Shown here in pieces: positions 34,508-55,492 of a DNA stretch of 64,000 bases (within the stretch, counting starts at the first letter, position 1; each line of letters opens with the position of its first letter). A program made the translations under genes and the position numbers. The notes below the pieces were generated by a model. The model was not told where the DNA came from. It did no database searches and saw nothing but the letters and a program-made list of their open reading frames with translations. The stretch comes from a virus, in the IMG/VR virus record IMGVR_UViG_3300036818_000105, positions 1 through 64,000 of that record; one strand, written 5' to 3'.

Positions 34508-34768
34508 CTAGTGCGAGCAGTTCGACGTGCCCGCACCGAAGCCGGGGATGCCGTGCGCCGTCCACGCCGGCTCAGCCGGCGGTGCCACTGTCCCCTCCGG
34601 CGCGTACTCAGCCTGCCCGCCGGCGACTAGGCCGGGGGCCTCGCGGGAACTGGCCCAGAACGCCTCGCCGACGGACACGTTCGCTAGCCTCCCGGACCAA
34701 GCGCTCTGGACCATCGGCTGGAGGGCCAGCAAAAGGATCGGCTGGTTTGGCGGAAGCGGAAACCCCAC
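34508..34768 (-). CDS. hypothetical protein
   Basis: Starts MGFPL. Confidence 0.6.
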   Translation of the reverse strand: MGFPLPPNQPILLLALQPMVQSAWSGRLANVSVGEAFWASSREAPGLVAGGQAEYAPEGTVAPPAEPAWTAHGIPGFGAGTSNCSH

Positions 34769-34772
34769 CTGA

Positions 34773-35090
34773 TCAGGCTACTTCCCCGGGCGCACCGAGG
34801 ACGGTAACGAAGCCGCCCCCCGCGTCCGCGACGACCTGCCAGCCCGCGTCCCGCAGGACGCCCGTATAGCGCTCCAGCGCGGCGTCCGTCGTCGACTGAA
34901 GGGTCTCGCCAGGCCCCGTGGACATGTTCACGCGGGTGACACGGACCTCTCCCGATTCCTGCCACGCGCGCCAGCCGGAGGCGATGACCTCGCCGCCCAC
35001 CGTGACCGCCTCCAGGTACCGCGCCTTTTGCATGGCACCCGACACGGCCTCAACGGTCGGAGGGTTCGTGTCGGTCAGTGGAAATCCCAT
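34773..35090 (-). CDS. hypothetical protein
   Basis: Starts MGFPL. Confidence 0.6.
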   Translation of the reverse strand: MGFPLTDTNPPTVEAVSGAMQKARYLEAVTVGGEVIASGWRAWQESGEVRVTRVNMSTGPGETLQSTTDAALERYTGVLRDAGWQVVADAGGGFVTVLGAPGEVA

Positions 35091-35106
35091 GATCCAACGC
35101 TAACCC

Positions 35107-35394
35107 TCAGATCAGGCGACCGCACCTCGTGCAGAATGAGCCGGGCGGGATGCGGTGCTCGCACGGGGCCTCGCTGGCGGGCTCGGCCGCGCCCGTGCCG
35201 ACGTCCGTGTGCGCCGTGCTGGCCACGGGCTGGCCATCCCGGTCAAAGCGGCTGAGTTCAGCATCAATGGCGCCCTCGACCCAGACTGACCGGGGCGTCT
35301 CGCCGCGCGCCTTGTCGATCGCTTCCGCCTTCGGCTCGCTTACGCGGACCGGGATGACAACTCGCTTGCCCTCAGGGGTCCGTTCTCTCGCCAT
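35107..35394 (-). CDS. ribbon-helix-helix regulator with C-terminal Zn motif
   Basis: VIPVRVSEPKAEAIDKARGETPRSVWVEGAI; CEH..CTRC. Confidence 0.8.
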   Translation of the reverse strand: MARERTPEGKRVVIPVRVSEPKAEAIDKARGETPRSVWVEGAIDAELSRFDRDGQPVASTAHTDVGTGAAEPASEAPCEHRIPPGSFCTRCGRLI

Positions 35395-35400
35395 GGAAGG

Positions 35401-35416
35401 AGTATACGCGTATACT
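35401..35416. promoter_or_regulatory. bidirectional leaderless promoter/operator palindrome AGTATACGCGTATACT
   Basis: TATACT on each strand, 6 nt before the RHH ATG and before the tnpB GTG. Confidence 0.75.
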
Positions 35417-35422
35417 GATTGA

Positions 35423-36685
35423 GTGACTATACGGAACCGGCTATACCCCGACGCACGGGCGGAAGCGATCATGCGCGACCTGCACTGTGCGCAAGCCCGG
35501 TACGTGTGGAACCTCTGCGTCGAGCAGGAATCCTGGTGGCGGCGGGACCGCGGGAAGATGCCAACCTGGGTAGAGCGATGCCGCCAGTTGGCTGAGGCGC
35601 GGACTGAGTTTGAGTGGCTTCGCGCGGGCAGTAATGCAGTCCAGCAGCAGGCCATCAGGGACTTCGGACGGGCGATGACCGCCTTCCTTGATCCGAAGAA
35701 CCCGGCTAGAGAGCCAACGTTCCGGAAGGCGGTCCGCGATGAAGGATTTCGCATCGTCGGGGAGCGATCGGGACCGCACGTTTCCTGGGGCCTTCGGCGC
35801 CTGAACCGCAATTGGGGCGAGGTCCGCATCCCGAAGGTCGGCTGGGTCCGCTTCCGCTGGTCTAGGCCAGTTCCGGGAGATGTGAAGTCCTTCCGGGTCA
35901 CCCTTGACCGCGCAGGCCGATGGCACGTCTCGTTTCCGTCTCCGCAGGGCGCCGTCGGCCGTCGGCCGACCGGGGCGGCCGTCGGCATTGACCGGGGCGT
36001 CCGAACTGCCCTGGTCACCTCAGAAGGCCAGCATTTCCGAGTGCCCAGAATTGGCGACCGTGCTGCAGGGCGGTACGTCGCCCTGCAGCGGCGCATGTCC
36101 CGCCAGCAGAAGGGCTCGCGCAAGAGGGAGAAAACCCGGCTGGCAATGGCCCGGATCGCGGTAAGGGTTGCCGACCGGCGCAAGGACTGGGCAGAGAAGG
36201 TCTCCACGCGACTTGTTAGCGACTACGACCTGATCGTGTTCGAAAAGCTGAACGTGGTCCGCATGACTCGCAAGTCTGCACCCAAGTCCGATCCTGATCA
36301 GGTCGGTGCATTCCTTCCCAACAAGGCCCGCGCGAAGGCTGGGCTGAACCGAGGCATCCTCGCGGCATGCTGGGGCATTCTGGCCGCCCGTGCCGAGGAG
36401 AAGGCTGTCGCATCAGGCGTGAGTGTCATCTACGTCAACCCGAGATTCACCTCGCAGCAGTGCCATGCGTGCGGCCACGTGAGCCGGAAGAACCGCGAGA
36501 GCCAAGCGGTATTCCGGTGTGAGTCCTGTGGCCACCATGATCATGCTGACGCGAACGCTGCGAAGAACGTACTTGCCCGGGGGCTAGGCACAATGGCGGT
36601 CCCTGCGCACGCCCCGGGTCACGGGGTGCAACGCCCGCATAAGTCCGCGAGAGCGGCGGCGGGAACCACCCGGAGTGCGACATAA
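35423..36685 (+). CDS. tnpB: TnpB RNA-guided endonuclease (IS200/IS605-derived), copy 1
   Basis: RLYP, ARYVWN, RuvC-I GIDRG, RuvC-II FEKL, TSQQCHAC..CESC, RuvC-III DANAAKN. Confidence 0.96.
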   Translation: MTIRNRLYPDARAEAIMRDLHCAQARYVWNLCVEQESWWRRDRGKMPTWVERCRQLAEARTEFEWLRAGSNAVQQQAIRDFGRAMTAFLDPKNPAREPTFRKAVRDEGFRIVGERSGPHVSWGLRRLNRNWGEVRIPKVGWVRFRWSRPVPGDVKSFRVTLDRAGRWHVSFPSPQGAVGRRPTGAAVGIDRGVRTALVTSEGQHFRVPRIGDRAAGRYVALQRRMSRQQKGSRKREKTRLAMARIAVRVADRRKDWAEKVSTRLVSDYDLIVFEKLNVVRMTRKSAPKSDPDQVGAFLPNKARAKAGLNRGILAACWGILAARAEEKAVASGVSVIYVNPRFTSQQCHACGHVSRKNRESQAVFRCESCGHHDHADANAAKNVLARGLGTMAVPAHAPGHGVQRPHKSARAAAGTTRSAT

Positions 36686-36745
36686 GCACTCCGGGAAATC
36701 CCCGTCCATCAAGTCGGGGAGGATGTCAAATCCAGTACTTCGCGT
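36560..36745 (+). ncRNA. predicted omegaRNA for TnpB copy 1 (5' end approximate; guide from 36730)
   Basis: Hairpins CCCGGAGTGC..GCACTCCGGG and TCCCCG..CGGGGA, then GGATGTCAA right-end motif (TCAA 36726-36729). Confidence 0.7.
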
Positions 36746-36775
36746 GGCAGTGCCCGAGGTGACAGGAGGATCGCC

Positions 36776-37360
36776 ATGAGCAACCCAGACATTCAGTATT
36801 TCGGCAGTTCCGGCACGTGGGTAAAGCCCCCGAACGCCGTCCGCGTTGACGTGGTGCTCAAGGGCGGCGACGGCGCCGCCCCCGGCACCGTGCCGGGCGG
36901 AGGCGGCGACCCGCTCTCGGGCCCTGCGTTTACAGGCACCGGAACCCTTAACGGCAGCACGGGCGGTGGGGGCGGCGGCGGTACGGCCGTGTATCCCGCT
37001 GCCCGGGGAGGCTCCGGGCCGCGCGTCAGCGTGGTCTGCAGCCCGAGCCCGGCCGCGTCTCCCGTAGGAATCCTAGGCTCGCTGAGCGTGGATTCTTACG
37101 ACGCCGATGACTTTCCCGCCGAGCTTCACGTCGAGGTCGGCAAGGGCGGCAGGCCCGGAGGCCGGGACGGGTACGCGCTGATCGTCACTCACCTGGCCTC
37201 GCCTAGCCTGCCGTCAGTTCCGCCGCATGACCTGATGCTTCACGCCCACTCCCGCGACCACCCGGACGACGGGGAGCCGCACGAGCACCTTCACGCCGGG
37301 CCCGGTCACATGGGACTTGAGCACGTCCACCCGCACCGGCATGCCTCGGGAGAGCAGTGA
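36776..37360 (+). CDS. glycine-rich domain protein with His-rich tail
   Basis: IQYF.SSGTWVKP..V.V...GG.G..V.VG.GG..DGY.LIVT; AGGAGG SD. Confidence 0.75.
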   Translation: MSNPDIQYFGSSGTWVKPPNAVRVDVVLKGGDGAAPGTVPGGGGDPLSGPAFTGTGTLNGSTGGGGGGGTAVYPAARGGSGPRVSVVCSPSPAASPVGILGSLSVDSYDADDFPAELHVEVGKGGRPGGRDGYALIVTHLASPSLPSVPPHDLMLHAHSRDHPDDGEPHEHLHAGPGHMGLEHVHPHRHASGEQ

Positions 37361-38853
37361 TGAATGACGTCACTAACCAGATCACGGCTCACCTGATGGA
37401 CGCCGCCAAGCTGGCGATCGAGGCAGGCGGCAACTACACCGGGAAGTACGCGATCATCGCCCAGGCGACGGTTGACTCTGACGGGTCGATCATTCTCACC
37501 TGGGAGCGGTACGGCCCGAACGGGATGGACAGCGGAGGCGGCCAGGGATGAGCACGGAGCACCAGATCACCAAGCGCGCCGCTGACGGCACCCTGACCAT
37601 CGCCGAGCTGCGGGAGTTCATTGACGAGTTCGAGAAGGCCGCCGACGCGGCGTTCGCGTCACCAGCCGACGGGACGGCAGCGATCCCAGACTGGTGGGGG
37701 CTCAAGCCGAAGGCCCGGATAGCGTTCGGCGGCGGGATCAAGTCGATAAGCGTCACCATCCCCGGAGAGGCGGAGTAGCGGTGAGCGCAGGCCTTTACCT
37801 TGGATTGGTCGGCATGGTCATCTGCGCTGTCGCGGCGGCCGGAAGCGCATGGGGGGCGGTACGGGAGATCCGGGGTTGCCCGGGCGGGGCGGCGCTGATT
37901 GCCGCCTGCCTGGCGCTTGCAGTAGTCGGGGTCGCAGCCGTGGTCTCGGGCATGCTCGTGGCGATGGGAGAGGTGCGATGAGTGTCACCATCCCCGGAGG
38001 GGGCGATAAGCAGTGAGCGACGTTCAGGACCGCATCGAGCGGACGCGCGCCGTCCGCCGCACCACTGTTCTCGTTGTCGCCCTGAGTGCCGTTGCCCTCG
38101 TCGTGAACCTCACGGAGGGATCGGCCGGGGTAGCGGCGGTGGCGGCGGTTGCGATCACCTTCCTCCTGGTGCTGATGGCCATCCAGACGCGCCAGATCGG
38201 GGCCTTGCGGCGGCGGGAGCGGGAGCTTAACCGCCCGCGCATGACCCCCGGGGACTACCGGCGGCTACGGGAGATGGAGACCGAGCTCGGCTGGGAGCCG
38301 AGCGAGCCGCCCCCCGGGGCTGAACTTCCGCCGGCGGCCGTCCCGGGGCGGATAACCGCCGTGGCGGGGCCGCTGCCGGGGGTGGCTGCCCTGTGCGGCT
38401 CCGGCAGCCTGTCCGCCCCGATGACGGGACCGGGCGGTCGCTGGCGCCCGCTCAGTGAACTGCCCAAGGCCAAGGCGGCCGAGCACTTCGCGCAACTGGC
38501 CAGGGTAGGCCGGGAGTCCTGCATCTCGTACTGTCCGGTCTGCGAGCGGCGAGGCCGGGACCAGGCAACGGCCGAGGGCATCCCGGCCGCGCCGCCGGTC
38601 GAGAAGATGTGCCGGGAGCTTGAGGACCAGCGGCGGCTTGAGGAAGATCGGTGGGAGCAGCAATGAGGATCGGCTGGCATGTTCACCTGCTCGGCCCCCT
38701 CGACCTGGGCGGCACCGTGTGGCGGTCGAAGCCGCGCCGTAAGCGGCGGCAGGTGTACCACGGGACACTGACAGGCTGGCGTTGCCAGCACAACCACAGC
38801 CGGATGGACCTCGCGGTTGAGTGCGCCCGGCGCGAGGCACGGAGGAGGGCGCG

Positions 38854-51259: not shown

Positions 51260-51550
51260 TCAGGCCGGGCCCTCCCCTTCCGCCGCGAACTGCTCCGGGT
51301 GGGCGATGGCGTACCGGGCCACTATCAGCTCGTGCTCGCTCAGGTATTCAGGGTCAAAGACGTAGACCCGGCGCGGCGTCCCCGGCTGGTCGCACTCGGG
51401 GCCCCCGTCCCGGTGGACCGCGTCACTGGCGAAGTGACGGTGGAACGGCCCCCACGACTCCGGCCACTTGCCGGCTCGCTCAGCCTTGTCGCGGTCGGCC
51501 TCCCACGGCGTGCGGGTGTCCTGGTCGTCCTCTGGGTCCGGGGTGCTCAT
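51260..51550 (-). CDS. hypothetical protein duplicated from the C-terminus of 41159-41659
   Basis: Contains inverted repeat copy 2. Confidence 0.75.
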   Translation of the reverse strand: MSTPDPEDDQDTRTPWEADRDKAERAGKWPESWGPFHRHFASDAVHRDGGPECDQPGTPRRVYVFDPEYLSEHELIVARYAIAHPEQFAAEGEGPA

Positions 51551-52225: not shown

Positions 52226-52471
52226 ATGACCGACGCTAGCCCGGTTGCCATCCAGCGAGCCATCGCGGCCAACATCCGAGCCGAACGCGCCCGCGCCCGG
52301 CTCTCTCAGCAGGCCGTGGCAGACGCCATGCAGAAGCGCGGGTTCGCCTACTGGCGCCAGCAGACAACCGGAGCGACCGAACGCGGCGAGCGCCGGATAA
52401 CCGCCGATGAACTGACCGCACTCGCCGCCGTATTCGGCACCGCGCCGGAGACGCTCTGGCGGATGCCGTGA
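52226..52471 (+). CDS. XRE HTH regulator coupled to tnpB
   Basis: IAANIRAERARARLSQQAVA..ERGERRITADEL..LA..F; TAGAAT 6 nt upstream. Confidence 0.9.
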   Translation: MTDASPVAIQRAIAANIRAERARARLSQQAVADAMQKRGFAYWRQQTTGATERGERRITADELTALAAVFGTAPETLWRMP

Positions 52472-53658
52472 GGCGGGCCTACAAGTTCCTCGCATACCCG
52501 ACGCGACCCCAGGAGGGCCGCTCGGGCGCGCTGCTGCGCGACCACTGCGACCTGTACGACGCCGCGCTCGAGGAACGCCGCGAGGCGTGGCGGATGCGGA
52601 AAGCTCCGGTGTCCTACGGCATGCAGTCTGCCCAGCTCAAGGAGATCCGAGCGGCCGACCCGGACGGGCAGGGGAGGCACTCGTTCACCGCCCAGCAGCA
52701 AACCCTGCGCAGGCTCAACGACGCGTTCGTTATGTTCTACAAGCGGTGCAAGATCCCGGGCAAGAAGCCGGGCTACCCGAGGTTCAAGCCGTACGCCCGG
52801 TTCGATCAGGTCCGGTTCGTCGCCGGAGACGGTGCGAAGTGGACCCCGGCGAACGGCATTGGCTGGGCACGCGCCTACTTCCAGGCGGTCGGCTCGGTCA
52901 AGGTGAAGCAGCACCGGCCGGTGACGGGCACCGTCAAGGCGCTCCAACTCAAGCGGGAGCACCGCCGCTGGTACGTCATCGTCATCACCGAAACTGAGCC
53001 GGTGCCGCTGCCCCCGGCGGGCCGTGAAGTCGGCGTAGACGTGGGGGTGGTGCGGTTCCTGACCACCTCGGACGGCGGGATCGTGGCCAATCCGCGTTTC
53101 TTCGCCGCGTCGGCCGGGGTGATCGCGGACTTGCAGCGCCGCATGAACCGCGCCAGGCCGGGTTCGGGGAACCGCAAGCGGATCAGGCGCGCCCTGGCCC
53201 GGGAGCACCGCAAGGTCAGGAACTCCCGCCGCGACTTCCACCACAAGACCGCGCGAATTCTCATTGACGAGTGTGACGTGATCGCCCTGGAAGACCTCAA
53301 CACGGAAGGGATGACCAGGCGTCCCAAACCGAAGCCCGACCCGGACAAGCCGGGCGAGCACCTCCCGAACGGGGCCGCCTCCAAGGCCGGCCTGAACAAG
53401 TCGATACGCGACGCGGGCTGGGCACAGTTCATGAGCATCATCGTCGGCAAGGCTGAGAGCGCCGGCCGGCGAGTGATCCTGGTGGACCCGCGGAACACGA
53501 GCATCGACTGTCACCAGTGCGGGCGAAGATGCGAGCGCCCGCAGCAGGACACGGTTATCTGCCCCGCGCACGGCGCGATGGACGCCGACGTGAACGGGGC
53601 CAGAAACATCGCCAGCAGGGCCGGGCTGGGCTCTGGTCAGGCCGCGCGAGCGGCCTGA
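52468..53658 (+). CDS. tnpB: TnpB RNA-guided endonuclease, copy 2
   Basis: RAYKFLAYPT, GYPRFK, RuvC-I GVDVG, RuvC-II LEDL, TSIDCHQC..CPAH, RuvC-III DVNGARN. Confidence 0.96.
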   Translation: MRRAYKFLAYPTRPQEGRSGALLRDHCDLYDAALEERREAWRMRKAPVSYGMQSAQLKEIRAADPDGQGRHSFTAQQQTLRRLNDAFVMFYKRCKIPGKKPGYPRFKPYARFDQVRFVAGDGAKWTPANGIGWARAYFQAVGSVKVKQHRPVTGTVKALQLKREHRRWYVIVITETEPVPLPPAGREVGVDVGVVRFLTTSDGGIVANPRFFAASAGVIADLQRRMNRARPGSGNRKRIRRALAREHRKVRNSRRDFHHKTARILIDECDVIALEDLNTEGMTRRPKPKPDPDKPGEHLPNGAASKAGLNKSIRDAGWAQFMSIIVGKAESAGRRVILVDPRNTSIDCHQCGRRCERPQQDTVICPAHGAMDADVNGARNIASRAGLGSGQAARAA

Positions 53659-53710
53659 GAAGGTGGCGGAGCGATCCGCCATAGCAGTCACCCAGTTTTC
53701 CAGATACGTC
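53580..53710 (+). ncRNA. predicted omegaRNA for TnpB copy 2 (5' end approximate; guide from 53692)
   Basis: Hairpins CAGGCCGC..GCGGCCTG and TGGCGGA..TCCGCCA, then GCAGTCAC right-end motif (TCAC 53688-53691). Confidence 0.72.
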
Positions 53711-53810: not shown

Positions 53811-53846
53811 CGTGCACGTGCATTCGTCGCGTGCAGATGCACACGC
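53811..53846 (+). promoter_or_regulatory. TGCACGTGCA box upstream of the portal operon
   Basis: CGTGCA at 53811, 53817, 53830; AGGAGG SD at 53858-53863. Confidence 0.6.
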
Positions 53847-53875
53847 TAGCGGCGGAGAGGAGGTGATGCTTGGGT

Positions 53876-55492
53876 ATGGTCGACACTCGCTCCGCAAATG
53901 TCGTCGCCTTCCCCGACCTCGCGCCGAAGGGCTCTCGCGGCCCCAGCGGCAAGCGGGCCCTTTTGGGTCCAGAGGTAGGGACGTCGTTCGATTACGGACA
54001 GCGCTTGTTCGCCTACTATTAGTTAAGGCGAAGGAGATGTGTTCGACTACGGCTTAGCGAATTTTCCGCTCGTGACTACAAAACGATGTTGTCCCGTAAC
54101 GGAATGTGCGCGGCCATCGAGCAGGTACTCACTCTCCCGATCAGGGGCGCCCCGTACACCATCGAGCCCGCCAAGGGTGACCAGGGCGAGGCCGAGTTCG
54201 TGACCAGCGTTCTCATGACAGCCGACGAGGACGGCGGCATGAAAACACCTATCAGCACGCTGGTCGGCCAGATTACGAGCGCGCAGATTTTCCGTCGCGC
54301 CTTCTTCGAACGTACTTACAAGGTTCGCGAATCCGACGGCAAGATCATTTACGACAAGGTGGCCTTTCGCCCCCCCGCGACCTGTCAGGCCAGGTACAAC
54401 GACCGTACGGGCGAGCCGAACGGGTTCCGTCAGCAGGTCTGGTTGTTCGGCGGGAACTTGATGCTCAACCGCACTCAGAAGGTTCCCGGCTACGTCGACA
54501 TCCCGAAAATCAGGAGCTACATATACACCCACGGGAAACACAGGGAACCTCTCACTGGTGTCAGTGAGATGGAAACGGCCTACTGGTGCTACCAGACCCA
54601 GGCGAAGCTAGCCTACCTATGGCTCAGCTTTCTCGAGGGAATGGCGATGCAGCGCCTCGTCGTCTACGGCAACGACCAGCCGGAGGCATCCCAGCGAGCG
54701 GATGACATCTCCCAGCTGCGCGGTTCCGGCATTGTCGGCCTTATCCACCCGATCGACGGGCAGAAGTCGTTCGAGGCCCTCCCCACGGCCGCGGACGCGG
54801 GCGCCCAGTTCGCGGCGTGCATGACGTACCTGGAGAACTGGGCAGCCAGCAGCGTCCTCGCCGGCTTCCTGCAGCTTTCCGGCGCGGCGGCGAAGGGCAC
54901 CCGGGCGGGCGGCGGCGCCAGTGCCGGCTCCTACGGCATGAGCGAGGACCAGAGCTCGTACTACCTGGCCTCCCGTGAGGCGGCGGCAACGGAGATAGCG
55001 GACAGTATCTCCCATGACCTGATCCGCCCCCTGGTGACCCTGAACTTCGGCGCGGACGCGGCGTTCCCGAAGTGGAAGTTCGGCCCGTTGCAGGAGGCCA
55101 TGACGGCCGTACTTTTCACCATGTTCGGGCAGCTAGCCGCCGCCCCCAAATTGAACCTGCCCCTCGCGTTCGTGGACCTCCTCACCGAGCGGATGGCGGT
55201 GATCCTGAACCTGGACGCGGACCAGATTCACGAGTCGCTGGTGAATACCGCGTCGCAGCGGGCGGAGGCGCTGGCGGGCAATCCCCCGCCCGGCATACCC
55301 CCGGAGGCCGCGGCGGGACTGGGGCAGTTGCAGGGGCTGGCGCAGGCGGGGACGTCGATCGCGCAGCAGGCGATAGCGAGGAACGGCGGGCCGCCGACGC
55401 CGCCGAAGGTGACCATGCCGCCGGCCGGGCCGCCCGCGCCCCCGCCCAAGCCGCCGATGGCCGGGGGACTCGCGGGGGCGGCGGCGCAGTGA
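53876..55492 (+). CDS. portal protein (DUF935/Mu gp29-like); 5' part interrupted, continuous ORF 54086-55492
   Basis: IEQVLTLPIR, AFFE, FRP..TC, GFRQ, P..G.S, SVLAGFL.L, GSY.MS.DQS, LIRPLV.LNFG..FP..KFGPL; follows terL. Confidence 0.85.

What the first reader, a model, noticed from the sequence alone, without database searches (positions are those of the whole stretch)
36560..36810. TnpB-1 guide also mirrors its neighbouring gene with only silent mismatches
Seen: after TCAA (36726-36729) comes ATCCAGTACTTCG (36730-36742). About 60 bp downstream the Gly-rich gene reads ATTCAGTATTTCG (36791-36803), 11 of 13 nt. The differences are ATC/ATT and TAC/TAT in I-Q-Y-F. The resident gene uses AT-ending codons atypical for this genome (also CCA just 5', where a TAM would lie). 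Inference: self-recoded immunity. The match is short, so its weight comes from repeating the TnpB-2 pattern with a divergent TnpB, which suggests a general strategy.
Basis: partly seen in the sequence, partly recalled or inferred. Interest (0 to 1): 0.82.

Follow-up and report, generated by a model that had tools for sequence, protein, structure and literature searches.

The report
Phage TnpB aimed at neighbour gene
A large uncultured phage carries a transposase-less RNA-guided DNA cutter (TnpB) whose guide spells the usual start of the gene next door as related phages write it, while the phage's own copy is spelled differently at two silent positions, the layout expected of a cutter that attacks rival phages and spares itself, though no cutting has been shown.

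Summary
ATCCAGTACTTCG (36730-36742) follows the conserved right end of the TnpB-1 guide-RNA scaffold (...GGAGGATGTCAA, 36729). The next gene reads ATTCAGTATTTCG (36791-36803), differing at two silent positions.

I recovered DNA for 23 homologous loci, giving 17 distinct alleles. Ten alleles carry the guide's first 13-15 bases exactly at the same codons. None has ATT; three have TAT.

The likeness to the gene family stops after 15 bases, about a guide's length.

Two bacterial relatives of TnpB-1 inserted after TGAC. The phage-gene sites are preceded by GAC in 12 of 17 alleles, and by full TGAC in three.

TnpB-1 keeps its D-E-D catalytic residues. Its scaffold RNA shows compensatory pairing across 78 sequences. 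There is no tnpA and no left end, only a divergent small gene across a 16-bp palindrome.

TnpB-2 in this genome repeats the pattern against the portal gene (16 of 18, both mismatches silent).

Best reading (about 0.55): an RNA-guided, free-standing homing or rival-excluding nuclease with a self-immune allele. Main rival: an insertion footprint with no present role.

Cutting, the recognition motif and guide loading are untested. Earlier notes of this scan describe the same layout in at least 15 other genomes. My paper searches found no published description.

The parts
35107..35394 (-). small divergent gene (95 aa), read as a ribbon-helix-helix/Arc-like regulator of the cassette
   Evidence: ORF seen. 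Pfam and PHROGs give no hit, so the fold is my reading of the sequence. Arc repressors in IS605 elements are described in bioRxiv 10.64898/2026.09.24.754181 (abstract read).
35401..35416 (.). 16-bp perfect palindrome AGTATACGCGTATACT between the two start codons, flanked by two promoter-like sites
   Evidence: Sequence. One search finds TATACT -10-like hexamers on both strands (2 sites found, 0.3 expected).
35423..36685 (+). tnpB-1, 420 aa, full length, catalytic residues kept
   Evidence: Pfam OrfB_IS605 and Cas12f1-like_TNB. PHROG transposase, 1e-77. The alignment to ISDra2 TnpB 8EXA keeps D (GIDRG), E (FEKLN), D (ADANAA) and two CxxC pairs.
36560..36729 (+). guide-RNA (omega RNA) scaffold: 3' end of tnpB plus right end, with terminal hairpin 36700-36719 and end motif GGAGGATGTCAA
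   Evidence: 78-sequence alignment A5. RNAalifold gives 15 pairs, 12 with compensatory changes. Weak Rfam HgcC hit at 36598-36741, E 0.03, below threshold.
36730..36745 (+). guide template; the first 13-15 bases equal the common allele of the neighbour gene family
   Evidence: Conservation in A5 stops at 36729.
36746..36775 (+). spacer with ribosome-binding site AGGAGG (36764-36769); no likeness to the gene family
   Evidence: Local alignments of 36745-36775 against shuffles give p 0.98, 0.57 and 0.45. No terminator-like site.
36776..37360 (+). resident glycine-rich gene (194 aa), intact
   Evidence: ORF. 91 homologues with the conserved head MSNPDIQYF..SGTWVKP. No Pfam or PHROG family.
36787..36803 (+). 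resident counterpart of the target: AGAC, then ATTCAGTATTTCG, with mismatches to the guide at positions 3 (36793) and 9 (36799)
52226..53709 (+). second cassette: XRE-type HTH gene (52226-52471), tnpB-2 (52468-53658), right end ...GTCAC (53691), guide 53692-53709
54824..54841 (-). portal-gene site matching the TnpB-2 guide at 16 of 18, both mismatches silent (TYLENW)
   Evidence: 0 expected in shuffles.

Best explanation
TnpB-1 is an IS605-derived RNA-guided nuclease cassette that has lost its transposase and left end. It is now a regulated phage gene: small divergent gene, palindromic promoter, tnpB, guide-RNA scaffold. Its guide is templated by the 13-15 bases just after the right end. These are a guide-sized relic of the start of the neighbouring glycine-rich gene, in the spelling most related phages use, taken from a site preceded by a TGAC-like motif.

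Inferred mechanism: in a cell co-infected by a related phage, the TnpB-guide RNA complex cuts that phage's gene at codons 6-10. The break either destroys the rival, or is repaired from the carrier genome so that the cassette and the neighbouring allele are copied in. This would be an RNA-guided version of the 'intronless homing' of free-standing phage homing endonucleases.

The carrier's own gene escapes because two silent differences lie at guide positions 3 and 9, inside the roughly 12-base seed.

Shown here: the anatomy, the conserved scaffold RNA, the intact catalytic residues, guide = common allele, resident = mismatched allele, and the motif inferred from relatives. Inferred: expression, guide loading, cutting, the motif of this particular enzyme, and the outcome (homing versus killing).
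For: (1) Guide boundary. 77 of 82 related loci end the scaffold with a GGAGGATG[T/C]CAA-like motif and then diverge completely. 12 of 15 predicted pairs show compensatory changes.

(2) Guide equals the family's common allele at the same codons. 10 of 17 distinct alleles (from 23 loci) match the guide perfectly from position 1 for 13-15 bases.

(3) The likeness is guide-sized. The 31 bases after it show no likeness to gene bodies or upstream regions.

(4) Motif. Two independent insertions of the same TnpB clade (61-63% identical proteins) have left junctions ...TTGAC|CGAG and ...CTGAC|CGAG before a left-end hairpin. Empty sites of one locus read ...CCGAC|ATG and ...CTGAC|ATG. The phage-gene site is preceded by GAC in 12 of 17 alleles.

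(5) The nuclease looks active: full length, D-E-D and zinc-finger cysteines kept.

(6) For ISDra2 TnpB the guide is about 16 nt. Double mismatches within positions 1-12 abolish cleavage, and positions 13-16 are tolerated (review PMC13639567, passages read; PMC8612924, passages). The resident mismatches are at positions 3 and 9.

(7) Independent repeat in the same genome: the TnpB-2 guide matches the portal gene at 16 of 18 with two silent mismatches, 0 expected by chance. None of the portal-bearing relatives has that cassette.

(8) None of the five related viral loci with DNA upstream of the gene has a tnpB there. Two of five related phage genomes searched have no TNB-domain match at all.
Against: No expression or cleavage data exist, and no sequencing run could be listed.

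The motif of TnpB-1 itself is unknown. If it is strictly TGAC, only 3 of 17 alleles carry it, and each of those has one seed mismatch. No sampled allele would then be a perfect target.

Known relatives of the gene are distant. The best protein is 60% identical, and the loci with DNA are 38-46% identical in most cases. Homologous repair from the carrier may therefore be inefficient, and the sensitive sibling population is unsampled.

Two silent A/T-ending codons among four are not rare in a gene with GC3 of 0.80 (my estimate about 0.18).

For TnpB-2, none of the 19 portal alleles that carry the site matches the guide exactly; the best has 1 mismatch.

The guides of the two phage-borne relatives L003 and L004 showed no convincing second match in their own genomes.
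Confidence: 0.55

Rival explanations
1. Footprint only. An IS605 element once inserted after (N)GAC at codon 5 of a copy of this gene. The phage regained a whole gene by illegitimate recombination or duplication, and the element then lost tnpA and its left end. The guide-gene likeness is history. The cassette is now inert or decaying, and the two silent differences are ordinary divergence of the replacement allele.
For: The match starts at the right end and follows a TGAC-like site, as any IS200/IS605 insertion flank does. Ordinary insertions of such elements occur in this phage group: L176 carries a 1,746-bp tnpA+tnpB element absent from the otherwise 99.9-100% identical L139. There is no tnpA and no left-end hairpin. 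The silent differences are statistically unremarkable for this gene.
Against: The ORF is full length with catalytic residues and a scaffold RNA that fits the family consensus. The remnant is trimmed to guide length, and the next 31 bases are unrelated. A second, unrelated tnpB in the same genome shows the same relation to a gene 1.1 kb away, inside an essential portal gene where a simple insertion would be lethal. While TnpB is active, a matching resident allele would be cut, so the mismatches matter in any case.
Confidence: 0.28
2. Conventional transposon maintenance. The element is a non-autonomous IS mobilised by a TnpA supplied in trans, and the guide simply restores the element after excision from this site.
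For: This is the established role of TnpB (preprint 10.1101/2023.03.14.532601 and PMC10690162, abstracts seen in the listing).
Against: No left end or hairpin was found within 1.3 kb upstream. The divergent gene starts 28 bp from tnpB. No tnpA-like ORF was seen in the ORF lists of the window; I ran no dedicated tnpA search of the genome. After excision there would be no TGAC-like motif joined to the guide, since the left junction is gone.
Confidence: 0.07
3. RNA-guided regulation. TnpB-1 binds the start of the resident gene without cutting and tunes its expression, as TldR proteins do.
For: The near-match lies at codons 6-10 of the next gene, on the same strand. Phage-encoded TnpB-derived transcription factors exist (listing, 10.1101/2025.07.22.666180, abstract start only).
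Against: The catalytic D-E-D residues are intact, unlike TldR as I recall it. Two seed mismatches should prevent stable pairing. The guide fits other phages' alleles better than its own.
Confidence: 0.05
4. Chance resemblance between a random flank and the gene start.
For: The 11-of-13 pair alone is only mildly unusual in 64 kb.
Against: There is exact 13-15-base identity to the same codons in 10 of 17 distinct alleles from other phages. The identity starts at guide position 1 and follows GAC. A second case exists in the same genome.
Confidence: 0.02

Closest known systems
IS200/IS605 TnpB with right-end guide RNA (ISDra2, IS608 type) and TnpB-driven transposon homing (Karvelis 2021, PMC8612924; preprint 10.1101/2023.03.14.532601; plasmid gene drive, PMC11870625)
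   Same: Same protein family and catalytic residues. The guide RNA overlaps the 3' end of tnpB, and the guide is templated by the bases just after the right end. The inferred motif is TGAC-like, close to ISDra2's TTGAT.
   Different: There is no tnpA and no left end. The guide's target is not the vacated insertion site but a gene 61 bp away, in other genomes. Self and non-self differ by base substitutions, not by presence or absence of the transposon.
Free-standing phage homing endonucleases (T4 SegF, SegG, SegB, Mob): intronless homing and localized marker exclusion (review PMC13565253, passages read)
   Same: A nuclease gene sits between phage genes. The target lies in a conserved gene beside it in relatives that lack the nuclease. 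The carrier is protected by sequence differences at the site. The expected outcomes are homing and/or exclusion of the rival.
   Different: Recognition would be by a guide RNA, not by the protein. That review lists intronless homing and transposon homing as separate kinds and gives no TnpB example of the former.
Phage-encoded Cas12r-CRISPR of Thermus Lalka phages (bioRxiv 10.64898/2026.04.20.719267, abstract read)
   Same: A TnpB/Cas12-lineage nuclease carried by a phage and proposed to act in conflicts between mobile elements.
   Different: That system has a CRISPR array with many spacers against integrative elements. Here a single fixed guide is aimed at an allele of the phage's own neighbouring gene.
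Arc repressors of IS605 elements (bioRxiv 10.64898/2026.09.24.754181, abstract read)
   Same: A small gene lies beside tnpB, with a palindrome in the shared promoter region.
   Different: The window's 95-aa protein matched no Pfam or PHROG family. Its Arc/RHH nature is my reading of the sequence only.

Membership tests
TnpB RNA-guided nuclease (IS200/IS605 OrfB) | OrfB_IS605 and zinc-ribbon TNB domains | tested here: met
   Pfam 6e-16 and 1.1e-19, both over the cut-off.
TnpB RNA-guided nuclease (IS200/IS605 OrfB) | RuvC catalytic D-E-D | tested here: met
   The alignment to ISDra2 TnpB (8EXA/8BF8) places D in GIDRG, E in FEKLN and D in ADANAA. The ISDra2 residue numbers D191/E278/D361 are recalled; D191A is named in PMC8612924.
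TnpB RNA-guided nuclease (IS200/IS605 OrfB) | Structured guide-RNA scaffold overlapping the 3' end of the gene and ending at the right end | tested here: met
   78-sequence alignment; 12 of 15 pairs compensatory; conservation ends at 36729.
TnpB RNA-guided nuclease (IS200/IS605 OrfB) | RNA-guided, motif-dependent DNA cleavage | not testable with these tools
   Needs a bench assay.
Autonomous or mobilisable IS605 transposon | tnpA (Y1 HUH transposase) in the element | tested here: not met
   No tnpA beside tnpB-1. The relatives L032 and L061 have one divergently upstream.
Autonomous or mobilisable IS605 transposon | Left end with subterminal hairpin after the target motif | tested here: not met
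   Hairpin scans upstream of tnpB-1 found none of the left-end type seen in L182 and L034.
Free-standing homing endonuclease (intronless homing) | Target lies in a neighbouring conserved gene of relatives that lack the nuclease | tested here: met
   Sequence level only. 10 of 17 alleles match the seed exactly. No tnpB within the related viral loci.
Free-standing homing endonuclease (intronless homing) | Carrier allele differs at the site and is spared | tested here: inconclusive
   Two seed mismatches are present. Sparing is inferred from ISDra2 data.
Free-standing homing endonuclease (intronless homing) | Biased inheritance or co-conversion in mixed infection | not testable with these tools
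   Needs an isolate and a co-infection experiment.
TldR-type nuclease-dead RNA-guided regulators | Loss of RuvC catalytic residues | tested here: not met
   All three acidic residues are kept. The definition of TldR is recalled.

The most novel reading that the evidence does not exclude
Large actinobacterial phages have repeatedly turned IS605 TnpB into RNA-guided free-standing homing or exclusion nucleases. Each has a private regulator and a fixed, guide-sized 'spacer' copied from the common allele of a nearby conserved gene. This genome runs two such weapons, one against the glycine-rich gene and one against portal. The allele spectrum of the target already shows the arms race: the only alleles with the full TGAC motif each carry a seed mismatch, and seed-perfect alleles lack the motif's T.
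Probability: 0.4. Interest if true: 0.85.

Novelty: new variant of a known kind. Interest (0 to 1): 0.76.

Why it matters
TnpB is known to keep its own transposon in place by cutting the vacated site. Free-standing phage homing endonucleases are known to cut a neighbour gene's rival allele. If this cassette works as read, it joins the two. It would be a natural, programmable, single-guide nuclease used in phage-against-phage competition or gene drive, protected by silent recoding. That would be a plausible step between transposon-bound TnpB and host- or phage-serving Cas12 systems.

It also gives a concrete test set: one enzyme, one scaffold, one guide, a predicted motif (TGAC-like), and natural sensitive and immune alleles.

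Tried and rejected
No close phage relative. Megablast of 34700-37800 and tblastn of the gene against 50,697 deposited phage records found nothing.

A single-protein scan of viral contigs for the gene found no relative. A scan with an alignment of homologues was needed.

The contigs of the closest homologues, P0001 (60% identical) and P0002, could therefore not be read, and the nearest empty or occupied sites remain unseen.

An exact scan of viral contigs for right end plus guide found no other copy. The window's own record may be left out of that collection.

No sequencing run was listed for 36300-37000: 'no RNA holder listed', and read laying was not used.

Remnant test. I looked for likeness of 36745-36775 to the gene body, to homologues and to their upstream regions. 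None was found. An apparent 17-of-24 likeness to L004's downstream region in the MAFFT alignment is within chance by my estimate.

Left end and motif from the window itself: nothing was found. The copies in G010 and G011 share homology only from the tnpA-tnpB intergenic promoter onward. The motif therefore rests on two junctions, L182 and L034, plus two empty sites.

L127, the tnpB of relative G003, is only 31% identical, and its flanks are absent from this genome, so it gave no help.

The guides of L003 and L004 had no convincing second match in their own genomes. L004's guide matches window 34546-34563 (-) with 2 mismatches. That site follows GCGT, not GAC; the motif is not conserved in three relatives; and G001 has no homologue in the 72% held. 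I treat this match as unexplained and possibly chance.

Post-hoc association: motif-perfect alleles against seed-perfect alleles, Fisher p 0.051, small n and related sequences. It is reported only as a lead.

Supplementary files of papers were not opened. Motif tables in the supplements of TnpB surveys might already list this clade.

Paper searches found no description of TnpB acting by substitutions against a neighbour gene in phages. The library lacks most subscription journals.
Full report
**What is there.** The window is the first 64 kb of a 124,491-bp virus record with direct terminal repeats and 70.7% G+C. At 35423-36685 (+) lies a 420-aa TnpB with Pfam OrfB_IS605 and Cas12f1-like TNB domains. 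Aligned to ISDra2 TnpB (8EXA/8BF8), it keeps the three RuvC acidic residues and both CxxC pairs. Twenty-eight bases upstream, on the other strand, a 95-aa ORF starts (35107-35394). The two starts are separated by the perfect palindrome AGTATACGCGTATACT (35401-35416), with a TATACT -10-like hexamer facing each way. That protein matched no Pfam or PHROG family. I read it as Arc/RHH-like, and a 2026 preprint reports Arc repressors in IS605 elements (abstract). No tnpA and no left-end hairpin were found.

**The observation.** Alone this is weak: 0.45 such matches are expected per 64 kb.

**Where the guide starts.** I collected two viral relatives (L003, L004) and 80 genomic relatives, from Streptosporangiaceae, Actinomadura, Actinoallomurus, Mycobacterium and others. 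In 77 of these 82 loci the region after the stop codon ends in a hairpin plus a GGAGGATG[T/C]CAA-like motif, and everything after it is unrelated between loci. I dropped L042, L059, L106 and L110 (motif at an unexpected place or context) and L103 (no motif). On the 78-sequence alignment RNAalifold predicts 15 pairs, 12 of them with compensatory changes.

The neighbour gene belongs to a family with 91 detectable homologues, several on contigs of about 125 kb. They share the conserved head MSNPDIQYF..SGTWVKP. Of these 26, 23 include the gene start. L011, L026 and L029 are partial.

The 23 loci give 17 distinct alleles over 6+20 bases.
- Ten match the guide perfectly from position 1, for 13 bases (2 alleles), 14 bases (7) or 15 bases (1, L028).
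- None has ATT.
- L007, L008 and L022 have TAT, and L030 has ATA.
- L014 and the L016 group have TTC for Tyr to Phe.
- L006 differs at three positions.

So the guide spells the majority allele. The resident gene is the only copy carrying two silent seed differences in an unchanged IQYF. None of the five viral loci with upstream DNA has a tnpB there. Of five related phage genomes searched, two have no TNB-domain match, and the target 13-mer occurs once in each of three of them.

**Guide-sized likeness.** The 31 bases after the 15-mer show no likeness to homologue gene bodies (p 0.98), to the resident gene (p 0.57) or to homologues' upstream regions (p 0.45). This contrasts with an ordinary insertion in the same phage group. 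L176 carries a 1,746-bp tnpA+tnpB element that is absent from L139, and both flanks are 99.9-100% identical for as far as the loci run.

**The recognition motif.** The window has no left end, so I turned to the TnpB-1 clade in bacteria, whose proteins are 61-63% identical. Two independent elements have left junctions ...CCCTCTTGAC|CGAGAAGCC... (L182) and ...CACCGCTGAC|CGAGCGG... (L034). In each, a hairpin like the right-end hairpin follows 16-18 bases later. For L182, two other species have the uninterrupted site ...CCCCGAC|ATG and ...GTCTGAC|ATG. The clade therefore inserts after TGAC, close to ISDra2's TTGAT as I recall it.

In the phage gene family the guide match is preceded by GAC in 12 of 17 alleles, GAT in 4 and GTC in 1. 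The full TGAC occurs in 3 (L007, L008, L030). The resident gene has AGAC. This makes chance very unlikely. It says the guide came from, or is aimed at, a genuine TnpA/TnpB-type site. It also raises a caveat: if T at -4 is required, no sampled allele combines the motif with a perfect seed (0 of 10 against 3 of 7; Fisher p 0.051, post hoc).

**Would the resident allele be spared?** For ISDra2 TnpB the guide is about 16 nt (PMC8612924, passages). Double mismatches within positions 1-12 abolish cleavage, while positions 13-16 are tolerated (review PMC13639567 citing Nakagawa 2023, passages). The resident differences are at positions 3 and 9. The relatives' matches cover positions 1-13 or more. This is an analogy, not a measurement.

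**The codon argument.** ATT, TAT and CCA are rare in this genome (7.3%, 6.0% and 3.7%). My ORF set was chosen by high GC3, and the gene itself has GC3 of 0.80 with an unexceptional 5' end. The silent differences alone do not prove selection.

**TnpB-2.** Alignment with six viral relatives places its right end at ...GTCAC (53691). The next 18 bases match the minus strand of the portal gene 1.1 kb away at 16 of 18, with 0 expected by chance. Both differences are silent in TYLENW. Of 46 portal loci, 19 carry the motif. None matches the guide exactly (the best, L138, has 1 mismatch), and the site is spelled in six ways. None of these loci has the TnpB-2 cassette, and homology to them resumes at about 53830-53893. 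A simple insertion inside portal would be lethal, so this second case argues against 'mere footprint'.

**Reading.** The guide most likely began as the flank of a real insertion after (N)GAC at codon 5 of a copy of the gene. The phage now has a whole, differently spelled gene 46 bases further on, and the element has lost tnpA and its left end. What remains is a regulated nuclease loaded, if expressed, with the common allele of its neighbour.

That is the logic of free-standing homing endonucleases. A 2026 review keeps such 'intronless homing' apart from transposon homing and gives no TnpB example (PMC13565253, passages). My searches found no published case.

I give this reading 0.55, the inert-footprint reading 0.28, and the rest to conventional maintenance, regulation and chance.

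**Earlier notes of this scan.** Unchecked AI notes on this genome describe the TnpB-2/portal match and the private regulators. I re-derived the former. A word search shows the same layout noted in at least 15 other genomes. These notes are leads, not evidence.

Noticed in passing
L003:4270-4330 (viral contig, TnpB 65% identical to TnpB-1): The 13-base right-end motif GGGAGGGTGCCAA occurs twice, 30 bases apart, so that two guide-like stretches follow one scaffold. This is a mini-array-like duplication.
   Followed up: no
L176:176-1921 versus L139-L144 (viral contigs, upstream of portal): A complete 1,746-bp IS605 (tnpA + tnpB) is present in one phage contig and absent from otherwise 99.9-100% identical siblings. 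The insertion lies after ...CGCTAC, and its guide equals the siblings' empty site. This is a clean natural plus/minus pair for conventional TnpB homing in phages.
   Followed up: partly
window 34546-34563 (-), inside ORF 34508-34768: The guide of the L004 TnpB (another phage) matches this site with 2 mismatches, in the frame WTAH.IP of a gene conserved in three relatives. The site is not preceded by GAC, and the motif is not conserved in those relatives. Possibly chance.
   Followed up: partly
window 54824-54841 and portal loci L132-L149, L173: The 18 bases targeted by the TnpB-2 guide are spelled in six different ways (mostly synonymous; some read Phe for Tyr) among portal genes that are 83-88% identical in protein. 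No baseline was computed.
   Followed up: no
loci L007, L008, L030 versus the ten seed-perfect alleles: The only three alleles with the full TGAC motif before the target each carry one seed mismatch. The ten seed-perfect alleles have CGAC, AGAC or GAT. This could be escape in the population, or chance (Fisher p 0.051, post hoc).
   Followed up: partly
window 36598-36741 (+): A weak Rfam match to HgcC family RNA (22 bits against a threshold of 50, E 0.03) covers the TnpB-1 scaffold. I recall that family overlapping IS605 orfB 3' ends.
   Followed up: no
window 51260-51550 (-) and protein P0069: A 96-aa ORF starting MSTPD... resembles an insert found inside one homologue of the glycine-rich protein (P0069), which hints at domain shuffling in this family.
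   Followed up: no
L182 (G011) and L184 (G010): The same TnpB-1-clade element sits at the same place, directly before the ATG of the same downstream gene, in two different species' genomes. It is either old or was transferred with its flank.
   Followed up: partly
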